64,000 bases of DNA, from NCBI RefSeq assembly GCF_055900595.2, contig NZ_CM148325.1; one strand, written 5' to 3'. Position numbers and translations under genes: made by a program. The number at the start of each line of letters is the position of its first letter. The first letter of the stretch is position 1. The notes beneath the pieces are model-generated. The model searched no databases and was not told where the DNA came from. It was given only the letters and a program-made list of their open reading frames with translations. Positions 10,111-19,925 of this stretch are shown piece after piece.

Positions 10111-10755
10111 TCAGCCGGTGCGCAGACCGGCTTCGGTGAAGGTGTATTCGTTGATGAGAAGGGCCTCATCCACAGGGGCATCTGAGGTCAGCCTGTTGTG
10201 CTCGTTTTCCAGTTGACGGTACAGCCATAAGGCCAGGTCGCGCAGGGCTTCGCTGACAGCGGCTTCCGCATCTGTTGTCATAGTCTGACCAGTCGGACTG
10301 TTCCGGGTAACAGTGATATCCATGCTGTACGGATGGCAGTAGCGTCCCCGGCGGTGGATTTCAGCCTGCAGTTGCCAGAAGTTACGCTTCTGCACCGCCT
10401 GCAGGGCATCCGCGATACGATGGAGTTCATGCTCCTGTGGGGCATACTTCCGGATTATCCGGGCTGTCGCCGGCTGCCAGTGCCAGCGTCCTTCAAAACA
10501 GGCTCCGTCCCCCTGGCTGCAGCATCCGCTGAACCAGATGCACGGCTCTTCCATAAACCTGCCGTTGCTGAGCCGGAAAACGCGCTGGCGGAGGTCAATT
10601 CCGAAAATGTCACAGACCGCCCTGAAGTCCTCATACACGTTTTCATACCAGTTGCTGTCAGCATGATGCTGACGGTACCCGTCGCGGGCTTTTCCCCGTA
10701 CCGGGCAGGAAAGTTCATCCAGCGTATACACTGTGATGGTGATAATGCTGCTCAT
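10111..10755 (-). CDS. Hypothetical 214-aa protein inserted between the yeeT-like gene and cbeA; unrecognised family with Cys-rich central motif
   Basis: Clean 214-aa ORF in the same orientation, 18 bp after the yeeT-like stop and 50 bp before the cbeA start; central motif CIWFSGCCSQGDGACFEGRWHW. Confidence 0.55.
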   Translation of the reverse strand: MSSIITITVYTLDELSCPVRGKARDGYRQHHADSNWYENVYEDFRAVCDIFGIDLRQRVFRLSNGRFMEEPCIWFSGCCSQGDGACFEGRWHWQPATARIIRKYAPQEHELHRIADALQAVQKRNFWQLQAEIHRRGRYCHPYSMDITVTRNSPTGQTMTTDAEAAVSEALRDLALWLYRQLENEHNRLTSDAPVDEALLINEYTFTEAGLRTG

Positions 10756-10773
10756 CAGAATCCCCTTTCTGAT

Positions 10774-10995
10774 TCAGTTCAGGGTGACGCTCATCAGCCG
10801 GACATACGGGCCAAAACTGTCCTTACGGCGTTCAGCAAACACGGCCAGCACACCGGGAATATCCTGTACTTCACGACCGGTATACGTCTCAGCACTGCCG
10901 TGCCAGCGGTACTTACCGGTGCAGAACGGAAATAGACGGGATGCAGGATGCTGTTGGTGAATACGCATGGCTTCACCACGGGTGATAATTTTCAT
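10774..10995 (-). CDS. DUF987 family protein (YeeT-like)
   Basis: 73 aa, same length and position as yeeT in the CP4-44 module. Confidence 0.7.
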   Translation of the reverse strand: MKIITRGEAMRIHQQHPASRLFPFCTGKYRWHGSAETYTGREVQDIPGVLAVFAERRKDSFGPYVRLMSVTLN

Positions 10996-11408
10996 AATGG
11001 GATACCTCTGAAGACAGAAGATAAAAGTGAAAACAGGTGTGATGTGGTTGTGACGGGTTAAAGCAGACCATGTTCGGCAAAGGAGAAAACCTGGCTGCCA
11101 CCGACTATCAGATGGTCCGGCACCCGGATATCCACCAGGCCCAGTGCCTGTACCAGACGTTCCGTGATAAGGCGGTCTGCCTTGCTGGGTGTGACTTCAC
11201 CGGACGGGTGATTGTGCGCCAGCACCACGGCAGCGGCATTGTGGTACAGGGCGCGTTTAATCACTTCCCGGGGATGGACTTCCGTGCGGTTGATGGTGCC
11301 GGTGAAGAGGGTTTCACCGGCAATCAGCTGATTCTGGTTGTTCAGATACAGCACCCGGAATTCTTCACGCTCCAGTCCCGCCATGTTCAGAATCAGCCAT
11401 TGTAGTGG

Positions 11409-12659
<1,251 letters not shown>

Positions 12660-12810
12660 ATTCCCGTGCCGCATGCGTGGAGGTGAAGGCCACGCCGGGT
12701 TCATGAAGATGGCGGTCCAGGGCTTTCAGGGCCCGCTGAATGAGGCTGCGCTCTCTGGTTGTCATTTCTCCGGGCAGAAAGGAAATCTGTTGCATTGTTC
12801 CGGCCCCCTT

Positions 12811-13290
12811 TCAGTCAATGATGCGCATAATGGCGCTGCATTCCGGATGCTGCAGGGCGTAATCCCGCAGACGGTAATAATGAACCGTCATGGCATAACA
12901 CTCCGTACGGCAGGCGTGATGACTGTACGTCATCAGACAGGCAGCAATGCCGGCGGCTTCCGGGCTCATTTCAGCGCGGTTACCGTTCATGGCATTGAAC
13001 AGTACCCATGTTTCGTCATCATCATCATCCGGTTCGGGGGCCATAAATGCCCCGCCGTTGTTCAGGGTGTACAGATTCCAGATACCACCGCAGTAGTCTT
13101 CGCACAGACGGTCCATCCAGCCGAAGACACGGGGCTCCAGGGTCACCCACTGTGGAATGAGGCCAAAATGCTGCGGCCAGAAGCTGATGCGCTGTTCATC
13201 AGGGACGAGGCTGGCAACCAACTGAGGCGGATTATTCTCTGGTGTTGTAGCTGAATAAATTGTGGGGGTATTCTGAGAAACGGTTTTCAT
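12811..13290 (-). CDS. Antirestriction protein (ArdB/KlcA, YfjX-like)
   Basis: 159 aa with the acidic PEPDDDDDETW stretch typical of island antirestriction proteins. Confidence 0.7.
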   Translation of the reverse strand: MKTVSQNTPTIYSATTPENNPPQLVASLVPDEQRISFWPQHFGLIPQWVTLEPRVFGWMDRLCEDYCGGIWNLYTLNNGGAFMAPEPDDDDDETWVLFNAMNGNRAEMSPEAAGIAACLMTYSHHACRTECYAMTVHYYRLRDYALQHPECSAIMRIID

Positions 13291-13371: not shown

Positions 13372-14190
13372 TCAGCGCATGCTCTCCAGCAGCGTTTCTG
13401 CCATCACCCACAATGCGCGGTTGAGTTTTATATCGGTATCAATGCTGTGAATGGCCCGGGTATGGATACGTTTTCCTTTTGCACTGCGACCGGAAATCCC
13501 GCCTTTCAGCATATTCTCCTGGATGGTCTGATAAGCACTCCACAGGTCCTTACCGTAATCCTCCCGGCGTCGTGGTGTCAGAATGTCGGCGGTGGTGACG
13601 GGCTGATGTTCGTCACCATAACGGTAAGTCAGTGCCGCCTGTGCCAGCGCCTGGCGTGCCGGTGGCGGCAGGACCAGCGACTGCATGGCATCACGCTTCT
13701 CCTCTATCCGGTCAAACACGCCCACCACCTCGTAAGCCCCTTCAATGACTCTGTCCACCACATTTCCCCGGTGCGGAACACGCACTTCCCCCAGAGACTG
13801 ACCGCAGACGCATCCGTTCTGGCAGACGAACCTGAAGTAACCCGGCAGCATCTGGTAGCTGGAGGTACCGTCATGGGAGTTCAGCAGGATGATTTCAGGG
13901 ACATGTTGTCCGTTTATCTCCCCGTCACGGCGCAGACGCAGCATGTGTTTGGTATACCCCCGGCGGCCCGGGTCACGTACGCGGGTCTGGCAGGCGAAGA
14001 ATGGCTGAAAGCCTTCCCGCTGCAGGCTTTCCAGCACGGTGATGGTGGGGATGTATGTATAGTTCCGGCTCCGGGAGGTGTGTTTATCTTCCCCGAAAAT
14101 CCCGGGCACATGGTGCATCAGCTCTTCACGGGTCAGCGGACGGTCACGGCGTATCTGGTTCGCATAACCAAAACGACTGGCTAATCGCAT
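13372..14190 (-). CDS. DUF932 family protein (YfjQ-like)
   Basis: 272 aa; position and sequence consistent with yfjQ-type genes of CP4-57-like islands. Confidence 0.65.
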   Translation of the reverse strand: MRLASRFGYANQIRRDRPLTREELMHHVPGIFGEDKHTSRSRNYTYIPTITVLESLQREGFQPFFACQTRVRDPGRRGYTKHMLRLRRDGEINGQHVPEIILLNSHDGTSSYQMLPGYFRFVCQNGCVCGQSLGEVRVPHRGNVVDRVIEGAYEVVGVFDRIEEKRDAMQSLVLPPPARQALAQAALTYRYGDEHQPVTTADILTPRRREDYGKDLWSAYQTIQENMLKGGISGRSAKGKRIHTRAIHSIDTDIKLNRALWVMAETLLESMR

Positions 14191-18595: not shown

Positions 18596-19925
18596 ACTGA
18601 TGAATCCCCTAATGATTTTTATCAAAATCATTAAGTTAAGGTAGATACACATCTTGTCATATGATCAAATGGTTTCGCCAAAAATCAATAATCAGACAAC
18701 AAAATGTGCGAACTCGATATTTTACACGACTCTCTTTACCAATTCTGCCCCGAATTACACTTAAAACGACTCAACAGCTTAACGTTGGCTTGCCACGCCT
18801 TACTTGACTGTAAAACTCTCACTCTTACCGAACTTGGCCGTAACCTGCCAACCAAAGCGAGAACAAAACATAACATCAAACGAATCGACCGATTGTTAGG
18901 TAATCGTCACCTCCACAAAGAGCGACTCGCTGTATACCGTTGGCATGCTAGCTTTATCTGTTCGGGCAATACGATGCCCATTGTACTTGTTGACTGGTCT
19001 GATATCCGTGAGCAAAAACGGCTTATGGTATTGCGAGCTTCAGTCGCACTACACGGTCGTTCTGTTACTCTTTATGAGAAAGCGTTCCCGCTTTCAGAGC
19101 AATGTTCAAAGAAAGCTCATGACCAATTTCTAGCCGACCTTGCGAGCATTCTACCGAGTAACACCACACCGCTCATTGTCAGTGATGCTGGCTTTAAAGT
19201 GCCATGGTATAAATCCGTTGAGAAGCTGGGTTGGTACTGGTTAAGTCGAGTAAGAGGAAAAGTACAATATGCAGACCTAGGAGCGGAAAACTGGAAACCT
19301 ATCAGCAACTTACATGATATGTCATCTAGTCACTCAAAGACTTTAGGCTATAAGAGGCTGACTAAAAGCAATCCAATCTCATGCCAAATTCTATTGTATA
19401 AATCTCGCTCTAAAGGCCGAAAAAATCAGCGCTCGACACGGACTCATTGTCACCACCCGTCACCTAAAATCTACTCAGCGTCGGCAAAGGAGCCATGGAT
19501 TCTAGCAACTAACTTACCTGTTGAAATTCGAACACCCAAACAACTTGTTAATATCTATTCGAAGCGAATGCAGATTGAAGAAACCTTCCGAGACTTGAAA
19601 AGTCCTGCCTACGGACTAGGCCTACGCCATAGCCGAACGAGCAGCTCAGAGCGTTTTGATATCATGCTGCTAATCGCCCTGATGCTTCAACTAACATGTT
19701 GGCTTGCGGGCGTTCATGCTCAGAAACAAGGTTGGGACAAGCACTTCCAGGCTAACACAGTCAGAAATCGAAACGTACTCTCAACAGTTCGCTTAGGCAT
19801 GGAAGTTTTGCGGCATTCTGGCTACACAATAACAAGGGAAGACTCACTCGTGGCTGCAACCCTGCTTACTCAAAATCTATTCACACATGGTTACGTTTTG
19901 GGGAAATTATGAGGGGATCTCTCAG
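18596..19925 (+). mobile_element. IS10 (IS4 family), copy 1
   Basis: Outside end CTGATGAATCCCCTAATGATTTT at 18596; inside end ...GGGGATCTCTCAG at 19925; flanked by 9-bp direct repeat CACCCAGTA (18587-18595 and 19926-19934). Confidence 0.95.
18704..19912 (+). CDS. IS10 transposase
   Basis: 402 aa; matches the Tn10/IS10 transposase sequence from memory. Confidence 0.95.
   Translation: MCELDILHDSLYQFCPELHLKRLNSLTLACHALLDCKTLTLTELGRNLPTKARTKHNIKRIDRLLGNRHLHKERLAVYRWHASFICSGNTMPIVLVDWSDIREQKRLMVLRASVALHGRSVTLYEKAFPLSEQCSKKAHDQFLADLASILPSNTTPLIVSDAGFKVPWYKSVEKLGWYWLSRVRGKVQYADLGAENWKPISNLHDMSSSHSKTLGYKRLTKSNPISCQILLYKSRSKGRKNQRSTRTHCHHPSPKIYSASAKEPWILATNLPVEIRTPKQLVNIYSKRMQIEETFRDLKSPAYGLGLRHSRTSSSERFDIMLLIALMLQLTCWLAGVHAQKQGWDKHFQANTVRNRNVLSTVRLGMEVLRHSGYTITREDSLVAATLLTQNLFTHGYVLGKL

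What the first reader, a model, noticed from the sequence alone, without database searches (positions are those of the whole stretch)
10111..10755. Unrecognised 214-aa gene wedged between the yeeT-like gene and cbeA in a conserved toxin-antitoxin module
In the CP4-44 arrangement as I remember it, yeeS, yeeT, yeeU and yeeV are contiguous. Here an extra gene sits in the same orientation with tight spacing (18 bp after the yeeT-like stop, 50 bp before the cbeA GTG start), so it is probably co-transcribed with the antitoxin and toxin. Its Cys-rich motif CIWFSGCCSQGDGACFEGRWHW suggests metal binding. It could be a third component or alternative partner of the CbtA/CbeA module.
Basis: partly seen in the sequence, partly recalled or inferred. 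Interest (0 to 1): 0.6.

Follow-up and report, generated by a model that had tools for sequence, protein, structure and literature searches.

The report
Known uncharacterised mobile-element gene (DUF8835)
The 214-codon gene is real and intact but not new: it belongs to a catalogued, functionally untested protein family (DUF8835) carried by conjugative elements, virulent phages and E. coli islands, and the familiar K-12 layout without it is a deletion derivative.

Summary
The ORF exists at 10111-10755, on the minus strand. It has 214 codons, lies 18 nt after the DUF987/yeeT-like stop and 49 nt before the cbeA GTG. Its product is identical to RefSeq WP_045146861.1, which is annotated as DUF8835, "hypothetical protein" or "antitoxin of toxin-antitoxin stability system" in different records. 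Full-length copies occur in 1942 of 5426 complete E. coli genomes.

The "contiguous" yeeT-cbeA layouts are deletion scars. K-12 CP4-44 keeps the ribosome-binding site, the ATG and about 7 codons of the gene. O104:H4-type islands keep its last ~113 bp.

The family is large (2753 representatives at 50% identity). Most members have no CbtA/CbeA nearby: 79 of the 80 best genome loci are alphaproteobacterial integrative conjugative elements (ICEs), and 57 phage records also carry it.

The gene is probably co-transcribed with cbeA and cbtA. A role as a dedicated third toxin-antitoxin (TA) component is poorly supported. My best inference, untested, is a stand-alone protein that helps a mobile element establish in a new host or counter its defences. 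Interest is low to moderate.

The parts
10111..10755 (-). The gene in question ('X'): 214-aa DUF8835-family protein, identical to RefSeq WP_045146861.1
   Evidence: ORF. Identical translation to the annotated CDS in L001. PHROG phrog_5162 matches at E=6e-31 over the full length. AF2 pLDDT is 96.2.
10762..10767 (-). Shine-Dalgarno-like AAGGGG, 6 nt upstream of the ATG of X
   Evidence: Read directly from the sequence. The same RBS-ATG stretch survives in the K-12 CP4-44 scar.
10489..10542 (-). Codons 72-89: family signature xIxFSGFxSQGDGA(C)FEG. The window allele reads CIWFSGCCSQGDGACFEG.
   Evidence: Q81, G82, D83, G84, A85, F87 and G89 are conserved in 92-98% of 119 diverse members. The model places this as a loop between two strands.
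10774..10995 (-). DUF987 / yeeT-like gene, immediately upstream of X (18-nt spacer)
   Evidence: ORF. RefSeq annotation of the collinear locus. phrog_14887 matches at E=1e-37.
9693..10061 (-). cbeA / YeeU-family type IV antitoxin (GTG start), 49 nt downstream of X
   Evidence: ORF, annotation, 90% identical to K-12 CbeA.
9229..9603 (-). cbtA-family toxin gene
   Evidence: ORF, annotation.
8807..9232 (-). DUF5983 (yeeW-like) gene, overlapping the cbtA stop by 4 nt
   Evidence: ORF, annotation of the collinear locus.
7937..8722 (-). DUF4942 gene, distal end of the array next to ynjB
   Evidence: ORF, annotation.
11058..11384 (-). 3' part of the RadC/JAB gene, cut off from its 5' part by an IS element
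   Evidence: ORF. The gene is intact in the otherwise collinear TUM9803 locus.
11402..12658 (.). 1257-bp IS3-family insertion, absent from near-identical genomes, lying upstream of yeeT-X-cbeA-cbtA in the direction of transcription
   Evidence: Alignment break against L001. Transposase ORFs at 11409-12155 and 12275-12622. Single copy in the window.
12643..12795 (-). 5' part of the split RadC/JAB gene
   Evidence: ORF, collinearity.
12811..13290 (-). KlcA/ArdB-type antirestriction gene (PF03230 family in homologous islands)
   Evidence: ORF, annotation, Pfam assignment in homologous loci.
13372..14190 (-). DUF932 gene, head of the compact same-strand array
   Evidence: ORF, annotation.

Best explanation
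SHOWN: the ORF is an intact gene for a member of a large, already catalogued but functionally untested family of mobile-element proteins (RefSeq 'DUF8835'; PHROG 5162; often mislabelled 'antitoxin of toxin-antitoxin stability system'). It is an ancestral member of the compact same-strand array DUF932 - KlcA - RadC - DUF987 - X - CbeA - CbtA - DUF5983 - DUF4942 at the end of enterobacterial genomic islands. The K-12 and O104:H4 layouts without it are two different deletion derivatives. The protein is a single-domain, soluble alpha/beta protein, acidic in most of the family. Its conserved surface feature is the loop SQGDGA together with E14, H112 and H141. It has no conserved Cys cluster and no solved structural relative.

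INFERRED (about 40% confidence): it acts on its own, not as a CbtA/CbeA partner, as an establishment or counter-defence factor expressed when a mobile element enters a new cell. It would most likely bind and block a host protein or nucleic-acid-directed defence through the conserved loop and pocket. The reasoning is that the family sits in three kinds of place. One is the conserved backbone of alphaproteobacterial ICEs, next to ArdC, a ParB-like protein and a giant AAA_34/Helicase_C_4 helicase. The second is arrays of small genes, including the terminal repeats, of virulent phages. The third is next to KlcA-type antirestriction genes in enterobacterial islands. In the window it is probably transcribed together with yeeT, cbeA and cbtA.
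For: Identity: the translation is identical to an annotated RefSeq CDS. phrog_5162 matches full length at E=6e-31. There are 2288 and 2753 homologues, nearly all about 214 aa.

Ancestral state: the last ~113 bp of X directly follow the DUF987 stop in O104:H4-type islands, and this junction occurs in 3072 genomes. The RBS, ATG and about 7 codons of X survive in K-12 CP4-44, and this junction occurs in 2820 genomes. No repeats flank X.

Independence from the TA pair: 79 of the 80 best genome loci are alphaproteobacterial and none of the 79 has a CbtA or CbeA match. In those loci, counting only loci with enough flanking DNA, the helicase lies downstream in 62 of 62, the ParB-like gene upstream in 49 of 55, ArdC (ArdcN + MPTase-PolyVal) in 34 of 50, and Toprim/DUF7146 in 42 of 46. 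A conserved 138-aa gene abuts or overlaps the X start in about 75 loci. There are 57 phage records, all from large virulent or jumbo phage genomes; the Caulobacter phage copies lie in the terminal repeats, and the two copies inspected lie in arrays of small genes. There are 110 plasmid records, 41 of them conjugative. CbeA proteins 88-90% identical to this one exist where X is deleted, and the K-12 pairs work without X (PMC5371832).

General principle: leading regions of conjugative elements are enriched in anti-defence, methyltransferase, TA and SSB genes, a third of the commonest families there are uncharacterised, and about 10% are shared with phages (PMC11541004).
Against: No experiment and no homology links the family to any known anti-defence protein. 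There is no hit in Pfam-A as held here, in NCBIfam or in PADLOC, and no ArdA-, KlcA- or Ocr-like fold. I did not show that X lies in a leading region relative to oriT. The one plasmid I inspected shows no relaxase within 14 kb. A KlcA-like gene upstream of X is not general in the alphaproteobacterial loci (1 of 64). The window copy is less acidic than the family (pI 5.9). It carries substitutions at well-conserved positions (A19V, F78C) and a one-codon deletion, and dN/dS among E. coli alleles is 0.47. X was lost repeatedly in E. coli, so it may be dispensable or decaying once an island is fixed in the chromosome. Tight embedding in the TA operon in enterobacteria, including a position between antitoxin and toxin, leaves a TA-related role open.
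Confidence: 0.5

Rival explanations
1. One reading: X is a third component or alternative partner of the type IV CbtA/CbeA module, for example a second antitoxin, a chaperone or a regulator of toxin activity. It would be co-translated with the pair.
For: In enterobacteria X is always inside the operon. E. coli has DUF987-X-CbeA-CbtA. Klebsiella and Salmonella have DUF987-CbeA-X-CbtA, and in Salmonella the X start overlaps the cbeA stop by 4 nt. An in-frame X-CbeA fusion ORF (343 aa) is found in 455 of 5426 E. coli genomes. On one Frigidibacter plasmid X directly precedes a different TA pair, MbcA/ParS antitoxin plus RES toxin. Databases call it 'antitoxin of the YeeV-YeeU system', but that name appears to come from adjacency only.
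Confidence: 0.12
2. X is an enzyme or ligand-binding protein of mobile-element DNA metabolism. The conserved polar residues (E14, D43, Q81, D83, E88, D108, H112, H141, R172) would form a catalytic or metal/nucleotide-binding pocket. X would work with the neighbouring ICE genes (up138, the giant helicase, ParB-like protein, Toprim) rather than against host defence.
For: Near-invariant polar residues are concentrated in loops. Sequence conservation is very strong across classes: about 57% identity between E. coli and alphaproteobacterial copies, and dN/dS 0.18. In ICEs X is fixed between a translationally coupled 138-aa gene and the AAA_34/Helicase_C_4 protein in 62 of 62 loci with enough flanking DNA.
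Against: There is no similarity to any enzyme family by sequence or by fold. Phage and enterobacterial copies lack up138 and the helicase as neighbours. I could not inspect 3D clustering of the conserved residues because model coordinates are not returned.
Confidence: 0.2
3. In this window X is an evolutionary leftover. It was inherited with the island, is no longer under effective selection in the chromosome, and is on its way to loss, so it has no current function here whatever the family does elsewhere.
For: Loss was repeated: junctions of two scar types occur in 2820 and 3072 genomes, and a stop-codon-removing fusion occurs in 455. dN/dS is 0.47 between E. coli alleles against 0.18 at depth. 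The window allele has A19V, F78C and a one-codon deletion in a conserved helix, and is rare: 46 genomes at 99% identity or more. An IS3-family element splits radC just upstream and may be polar on the operon. Neighbouring genes in the same array are often pseudogenes.
Against: The ORF is intact. 21 of the 22 positions that are invariant or at least 90% conserved in the family are retained in the window allele. Full-length copies persist in 36% of complete E. coli genomes. dN/dS is still below 1.
Confidence: 0.15
4. X is a Cys-based metal-binding (zinc-finger-like or Fe-S) protein, as the motif CIWFSGCCSQGDGACFEGRWHW suggested.
For: Four Cys lie within 15 residues in the window allele.
Against: Across 119 diverse members the frequencies are C72 29%, C78 2% (Phe in 89%), C79 18% and C86 58%. 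No pair of Cys is conserved. Other E. coli alleles read FSGFCSQGDGAC.
Confidence: 0.03

Closest known systems
DUF8835 family (RefSeq product name) = PHROG phrog_5162 = proteins named 'antitoxin of toxin-antitoxin stability system' in NCBI and UniProt
   Same: The translation is identical to WP_045146861.1. The profile match is full length at E=6e-31. Length is the same at about 214 aa, and the SQGDGA signature is shared. AFDB models of members superpose at TM 0.9-0.98.
   Different: Nothing differs in kind. The window allele is a rare variant (A19V, F78C, one-codon deletion). The family has no demonstrated function, and I found no evidence behind the 'antitoxin' name.
CbeA/YeeU type IV antitoxin (PF06154)
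   Same: Adjacent gene in the same operon. The two are fused in frame in 455 genomes. Databases label both as antitoxins.
   Different: No sequence, profile or fold similarity. X is 214 aa against 122 aa for CbeA. X occurs mostly without any CbtA toxin.
Antirestriction and establishment proteins of conjugative elements: KlcA/ArdB (PF03230), ArdC (ArdcN + MPTase-PolyVal), ArdA
   Same: Same neighbourhoods: KlcA lies about 2 kb upstream in the enterobacterial islands and ArdC about 5.7 kb upstream in alphaproteobacterial ICEs. X is small and soluble, usually acidic, and is shared between conjugative elements and phages.
   Different: No homology and no fold match. Antirestriction activity is untested. 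The resemblance is in context and composition only.
[not shown]
   Same: Helix packed on an antiparallel sheet; about 100 residues superpose at 3.3 A rmsd.

Membership tests
DUF8835 / PHROG 5162 ('antitoxin of toxin-antitoxin stability system' proteins) | Full-length sequence homology to family members | tested here: met
   phrog_5162 matches at E=6e-31, residues 3-212 of 214. 2288 homologues. Identical to WP_045146861.1, annotated as DUF8835.
DUF8835 / PHROG 5162 | Conserved signature FSGFxSQGDGA(C)FEG plus E14, L15, G52, H141, W177, F206 and G210 | tested here: met
   The window allele keeps 21 of the 22 positions that are invariant or at least 90% conserved. The exception is A19V. F78 (89% conserved) is Cys here.
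DUF8835 / PHROG 5162 | Match to the Pfam DUF8835 model itself | not testable with these tools
   The held Pfam-A copy returns no hit for X or for any of 119 members. The DUF8835 label is taken from RefSeq product names.
CbeA/YeeU antitoxin family (PF06154) | Sequence or profile similarity to CbeA | tested here: not met
   No Pfam hit. hhalign of the X profile against a CbeA profile gives probability 0.15%.
CbeA/YeeU antitoxin family (PF06154) | YeeU-like fold | tested here: not met
   [not shown]
Dedicated component of the CbtA/CbeA type IV TA module | Co-occurrence with CbtA/CbeA throughout the family | tested here: not met
   Co-occurrence is seen only in enterobacteria. It is absent from 79 of the 80 best genome loci, from the two phage loci inspected and from three further metagenome contexts.
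Dedicated component of the CbtA/CbeA type IV TA module | The TA pair needs it: it is retained wherever the pair is retained | tested here: not met
   Two independent deletion scars sit next to intact cbeA-cbtA. CbeA is 88-90% identical with and without X. The K-12 pairs function without it (PMC5371832).
Dedicated component of the CbtA/CbeA type IV TA module | Effect on CbtA toxicity or CbeA neutralisation; physical interaction | not testable with these tools
   This needs co-expression and interaction assays. The only proxy was the AF2 model of the natural X-CbeA fusion, which gives pTM 0.67 and no confident packing.
Cys-based metal-binding motif proteins | Conserved set of Cys (or Cys/His) ligands | tested here: not met
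   Cys frequencies are C17 2%, C48 36%, C72 29%, C78 2%, C79 18%, C86 58% and C140 21%.
Known antirestriction families (ArdA, KlcA/ArdB, ArdC) | Homology to the family profile or fold | tested here: not met
   [not shown]
Leading-region / anti-defence-island genes of conjugative elements | Position within the first genes to enter the recipient, relative to oriT and the relaxase | tested here: inconclusive
   X lies in the conserved ICE backbone with ArdC, a ParB-like protein and a helicase. oriT and the relaxase were not located. The inspected plasmid shows no relaxase within 14 kb.
Leading-region / anti-defence-island genes of conjugative elements | Anti-defence activity | not testable with these tools
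   This needs conjugation or phage-plating assays against defence systems.
Anti-phage defence systems (PADLOC) | Match to any defence-system protein model | tested here: not met
   0 families at E up to 1.

The most novel reading that the evidence does not exclude
DUF8835 is the founding member of a so far unrecognised class of establishment or counter-defence effectors with a fold that has no solved relative. The class is shared by conjugative elements and virulent phages. In enterobacterial islands the gene has been drawn into the CbtA/CbeA operon, where it may additionally tune the toxin-antitoxin pair.
Probability: 0.3. Interest if true: 0.6.

Novelty: already known. Interest (0 to 1): 0.3.

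Why it matters
For genome annotation, the label 'antitoxin of toxin-antitoxin stability system' on thousands of these proteins appears to rest on gene adjacency only and should not be read as a function. The textbook K-12 yeeS-yeeT-cbeA-cbtA layout is a degraded version of a longer ancestral array.

For biology, this is a large, strongly conserved, single-domain family: about 57% identity between E. coli and alphaproteobacterial copies, and 2753 clusters at 50% identity. It has a confidently predicted fold with no solved relative. It occurs in ICE backbones, conjugative plasmids, virulent phages and pathogenicity-island ends, which is the kind of distribution seen for establishment and anti-defence genes. 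That makes it a reasonable, cheap candidate for such screens. The 455 genomes with an in-frame X-CbeA fusion, and the many natural deletions, are ready-made comparisons for testing any link to the toxin-antitoxin pair.

Tried and rejected
1. No hits for X, even at permissive E-values, in Pfam-A (single protein and all 119 members), NCBIfam, PADLOC, or PDB by sequence and by profile.

3. Literature searches found nothing about this family. I searched for the product name, 'DUF8835', 'SQGDG', DUF932+DUF987, and yeeT/yeeU/yeeS.

4. I tested whether the gene upstream of X in ICEs (the 138-aa 'up138') is a divergent CbeA or YeeT, which would have made an ancient X-antitoxin pairing. hhalign probabilities were 0.3-0.4%, so I rejected this. 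up138 also has no Pfam or PHROG hit.

5. I tested whether a KlcA-like gene generally accompanies X in alphaproteobacterial ICEs. It does so in 1 of 64 loci, so I rejected this.

6. I looked for informative domain fusions among longer homologues (P0140, P0155, P0134, P0222). The extensions are uninformative or look like frameshift read-through.

7. The AF2 model of the natural X-CbeA fusion, used as a proxy for an interface, gave pTM 0.67 with a disordered linker, so it offers no support.

8. No repeats flank X, so there is no sign of an inserted cassette.

9. The only Rfam match near X lies inside the IS element.

10. My first dN/dS run for the window against L094 was invalid because of a one-codon indel. 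I redid it with a codon alignment.
Full report
1. THE OBSERVATION

An ATG-initiated ORF of 214 codons occupies 10111..10755, on the minus strand. On that strand it follows the 73-aa DUF987/yeeT-like ORF (10774..10995) after 18 nt. It ends 49 nt before the GTG start of the cbeA/YeeU-family gene (9693..10061). cbtA follows at 9229..9603. An AAGGGG Shine-Dalgarno-like run lies 6 nt before the ATG. The quoted motif CIWFSGCCSQGDGACFEGRWHW is at residues 72-93.

The gene is one of a compact same-strand array: DUF932 (13372-14190), KlcA-type antirestriction (12811-13290), RadC/JAB (split here), DUF987, X, CbeA, CbtA, DUF5983 (8807-9232) and DUF4942 (7937-8722). The array abuts ynjB. Spacers along the array range from -4 to 89 nt, so the spacing around X is not special. 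No terminator-like or sigma-70-like site is predicted on the minus strand between yeeT and cbtA. Co-transcription is therefore plausible but not shown. No repeats flank X.

2. IT IS A REAL GENE AND IT IS ALREADY CATALOGUED

The translation is identical to the RefSeq CDS WP_045146861.1 in the collinear locus of E. coli TUM9803. Different RefSeq records annotate identical or near-identical loci as 'hypothetical protein', 'antitoxin of toxin-antitoxin stability system' or 'DUF8835 domain-containing ...'. PHROGs holds the family as phrog_5162, with unknown function; the match is E=6e-31 over the full length.

The copies of Pfam-A, NCBIfam and PADLOC held here give no hit. Neither do PDB sequences.

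A full-length copy is present in 1942 of 5426 complete E. coli genomes. The exact window allele, at 99% identity or more, is in 46. I found no paper on the family.

3. THE GENE-LESS LAYOUT IS THE DERIVED ONE

Some 1760 further genomes match only bases 533-645 of the gene, and nothing is annotated there. In O104:H4 and strain 2013C-3342 this remnant begins immediately after the DUF987 stop and fills most of a 162-nt yeeT-cbeA spacer.

In K-12 CP4-44 the 73-nt yeeT-cbeA spacer keeps the RBS, the ATG and about seven codons of X (GGGAATTCTGATGAGCAGAATTATCGCCA). It then joins the sequence just upstream of cbeA, leaving a 16-codon stub, MSRIIATTGPFLADFL.

The two junction types are found in 3072 and 2820 genomes respectively. 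Genomes carry several island copies, with a median of 3.

A third event is a 31-nt deletion that removes the X stop codon and fuses X in frame to cbeA, giving a 343-aa ORF. Its junction occurs in 455 genomes, and PGAP calls X a pseudogene there.

K-12 CP4-6 and CP4-57 have 18- and 37-nt DUF987-antitoxin spacers and no X.

X is therefore ancestral to this island type and has been lost at least twice, while cbeA-cbtA was kept. CbeA is 88-90% identical with and without X.

4. THE FAMILY AT LARGE

Searching every representative of 1.84 billion clusters gives 2753 relatives at E up to 1e-3. Nearly all are about 210-220 aa single-domain proteins.

The genome collection yields 542 loci. Of the best 80, 79 are alphaproteobacterial, at about 57% identity to the E. 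coli protein, and one is Salmonella diarizonae. None of the 79 has a CbtA, CbeA or DUF987 match. Instead X sits in a conserved conjugative-element backbone. Counting only loci with enough flanking DNA:
- An ArdC protein (ArdcN + MPTase-PolyVal) is present in 34 of 50 loci.
- A ~720-aa ParB-like protein is present in 49 of 55.
- A conserved 138-aa gene of unknown family abuts or overlaps the X start in about 75 loci.
- A ~1440-aa AAA_34/ResIII/Helicase_C_4 protein lies downstream in 62 of 62.
- A DUF7146/Toprim_3 protein is present in 42 of 46.

PLSDB holds 110 plasmids with the gene, 41 of them conjugative, again mostly alphaproteobacterial. Fifty-seven phage records carry it. All are from large virulent or jumbo phage genomes: Caulobacter phiCbK-like, Acinetobacter Saclayvirus, Pseudomonas Lana/PMBT3, jumbo phages of Serratia, Erwinia, Salmonella and Klebsiella, and E. 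coli Av-05. In the Caulobacter phages the gene lies in the terminal repeats, and in the two phages I inspected it lies inside arrays of small genes. Other metagenomic contexts are similar arrays of small unknown genes near recombinases or methyltransferases.

In enterobacteria two orders exist: DUF987-X-CbeA-CbtA in E. coli and DUF987-CbeA-X-CbtA in Klebsiella michiganensis and Salmonella. In Salmonella there are two cbeA paralogues and the X start overlaps the second cbeA stop by 4 nt.

5. THE PROTEIN

With a 119-sequence alignment AlphaFold2 gives mean pLDDT 96.2 and pTM 0.89. The fold is alpha/beta. Two N-terminal helices are followed by a six-stranded meander, two helices, a beta hairpin, a long helix (163-189), a short helix and a terminal strand pair.

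Two positions are invariant (L15, G52). Twenty more are conserved in at least 90% of members: E14, A19, A23, G77, Q81, G82, D83, G84, A85, F87, G89, L111, I114, L118, H141, W177, Y179, L182, F206 and G210. The signature is FSGFxSQGDGA(C)FEG, a loop between two strands.

The 'CC' is due to F78C in this allele.

The family is typically acidic, with median pI 4.78 and net charge -15. The window copy is less so, at pI 5.9.

dN/dS is 0.18 against the Salmonella copy but 0.47 against another E. coli allele. The window allele also has A19V and a one-codon deletion in the first helix.

6. WHAT IT MOST LIKELY DOES

Shown: X is a stand-alone, strongly conserved mobile-element protein whose distribution does not depend on CbtA/CbeA.

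Inferred: the places where it occurs are where establishment and counter-defence genes are typically found. These are ICE backbones next to ArdC, conjugative plasmids, phage terminal repeats and small-gene arrays, and the KlcA-RadC arrays of enterobacterial islands. Leading regions of conjugative elements are enriched in anti-restriction, methyltransferase, TA and SSB genes. A third of the commonest families there are uncharacterised, and about 10% have phage-associated annotations (PMC11541004).

I therefore favour, at roughly 40%, an entry-phase factor that binds a host target through the conserved loop and pocket.

Against this reading: there is no homology or fold link to any known anti-defence protein, the position relative to oriT is not established, and the gene is repeatedly lost once islands are chromosomal.

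7. RIVALS

(a) Third TA component, about 12%. It is supported by operon embedding in two orders and by the in-frame fusion lineage. It is contradicted by the family's distribution, by repeated loss with the TA pair retained, by K-12 pairs that work alone (PMC5371832), by the lack of similarity to CbeA, and by an AF2 model of the natural fusion with no confident domain packing (pTM 0.67, linker pLDDT below 50). That last test is weak.

(b) An enzyme or ligand-binding protein of element DNA metabolism that works with up138 and the helicase, about 20%.

(c) A decaying passenger in this particular island, about 15%. This is not exclusive of the other readings.

(d) A Cys-based metal binder, about 3%, effectively refuted.

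8. COMPARISON AND NOVELTY

The gene is a member, by identity, of the DUF8835 / PHROG 5162 family. It is not a member of the CbeA/YeeU, ArdA, KlcA or ArdC families. It is 'already known' as a catalogued entity.

Three points are not documented in anything I could find:
- the 'antitoxin' name lacks support;
- the K-12 layout is a deletion scar;
- the family spans ICEs, plasmids and virulent phages, with a fold that has no solved relative.

I score interest at 0.3. This is a sound candidate for an anti-defence or TA-modulation screen, but not a surprise to a specialist.

Noticed in passing
window 11402-12658: A 1257-bp IS3-family element (transposase ORFs at 12275-12622 and 11409-12155, minus strand) splits the RadC/JAB gene into 12643-12795 and 11058-11384. 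It is absent from otherwise near-identical genomes and is single-copy in the window. It may be polar on yeeT-X-cbeA-cbtA, or may drive them.
   Followed up: partly
window 12468-12590 (-): A full-length Rfam isrC (RF01387) match at 145 bits lies inside the IS3-family element, over its first transposase ORF. This 'sRNA' family is apparently IS-borne here.
   Followed up: no
window 18597-19925 and 36112-37440: Two 1329-bp IS copies, 99.7% identical and in inverted orientation, with ends CTGATGAATCCCCTAATGATTTT (IS10-like, from memory). Both are absent from the collinear TUM9803 island. Together they bracket about 16 kb in a composite-transposon-like arrangement.
   Followed up: partly
window ~7900-61700 (by collinearity with L100, NZ_CP135671.1): The array containing X is the ynjB-proximal end of a large pathogenicity-island-like region. 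In the collinear genome this region carries aerobactin (iucABCD-iutA), sitABCD, a YadA-like adhesin, sodC, a group II intron and many IS remnants.
   Followed up: partly
L004 2040-2112 (K-12 MG1655, yeeT-cbeA spacer): The K-12 CP4-44 spacer contains an unannotated 16-codon stub ORF (MSRIIATTGPFLADFL) with the original RBS and start of the deleted gene. The same junction occurs in 2820 of 5426 genomes.
   Followed up: yes
L002 2501-2613 and L003 2501-2613: An unannotated ~113-bp 3' remnant of the gene directly follows the DUF987 stop in O104:H4-type islands; the junction occurs in 3072 genomes. I did not examine whether this retained piece carries a signal for cbeA-cbtA expression.
   Followed up: partly
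L094 5001-6032; L095 912-1943: A 31-nt deletion removes the stop of X and fuses it in frame to cbeA, giving a 343-aa ORF with junction ...AGLRAG-LPEDFI-VSDK.... It occurs in 455 complete E. coli genomes at an island next to cadC. The cbeA Shine-Dalgarno sequence and GTG are retained, so both a fusion protein and free CbeA could be made.
   Followed up: partly
L088 6293-8081 (Salmonella); L102 5610-6996 (Klebsiella michiganensis): In these genera X lies between the antitoxin and toxin genes. Salmonella has two tandem, partly overlapping cbeA paralogues, and the second overlaps the X start by 4 nt.
   Followed up: partly
L085 1740-2156; L101 13589-14008; about 75 of the alphaproteobacterial loci L005-L084: A strongly conserved 138-aa gene (MADYfTHFSCLLDVG...GGGAHvlDL...) abuts or overlaps the start of X in alphaproteobacterial ICEs. 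It has no Pfam, NCBIfam or PHROG hit and no profile similarity to CbeA or DUF987. It is a possible functional partner of X.
   Followed up: partly
L101 14001-15810 (Frigidibacter mobilis plasmid pcai42A): Here X is directly followed by a different toxin-antitoxin pair (MbcA/ParS/Xre antitoxin plus RES-family NAD+ phosphorylase) instead of the usual helicase.
   Followed up: no
RefSeq product names: The product string is printed as 'DUF8835 domain-containing pootine', apparently a typo propagated in RefSeq annotation. Identical loci are named in three different ways across records.
   Followed up: no
AFDB entry A0A4P9WST2: A 969-aa 'DUF4326 domain-containing protein' of the fungus Blyttiomyces helicus contains a region 56% identical to X. 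This is probably bacterial contamination or a merged gene model rather than a eukaryotic homologue.
   Followed up: no
L091 (Acinetobacter phage vB_AbaM_CP14, OP585105.1): The X homologue is annotated 'RNA polymerase binding protein'. Its 50-70-aa neighbours carry names such as DNA polymerase, sliding clamp and clamp loader. These labels look like mis-transferred annotation and should not be used as functional evidence.
   Followed up: no
L107 2420-3369 (K-12 CP4-57): The KlcA-like and RadC-like genes of CP4-57 are now named lfgA and lfgB. LfgB is reported to be a protease that cleaves antitoxin MqsA (PMC10846083; title and abstract seen only). This suggests that the RadC-like members of these arrays can act on unrelated antitoxins.
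   Followed up: no
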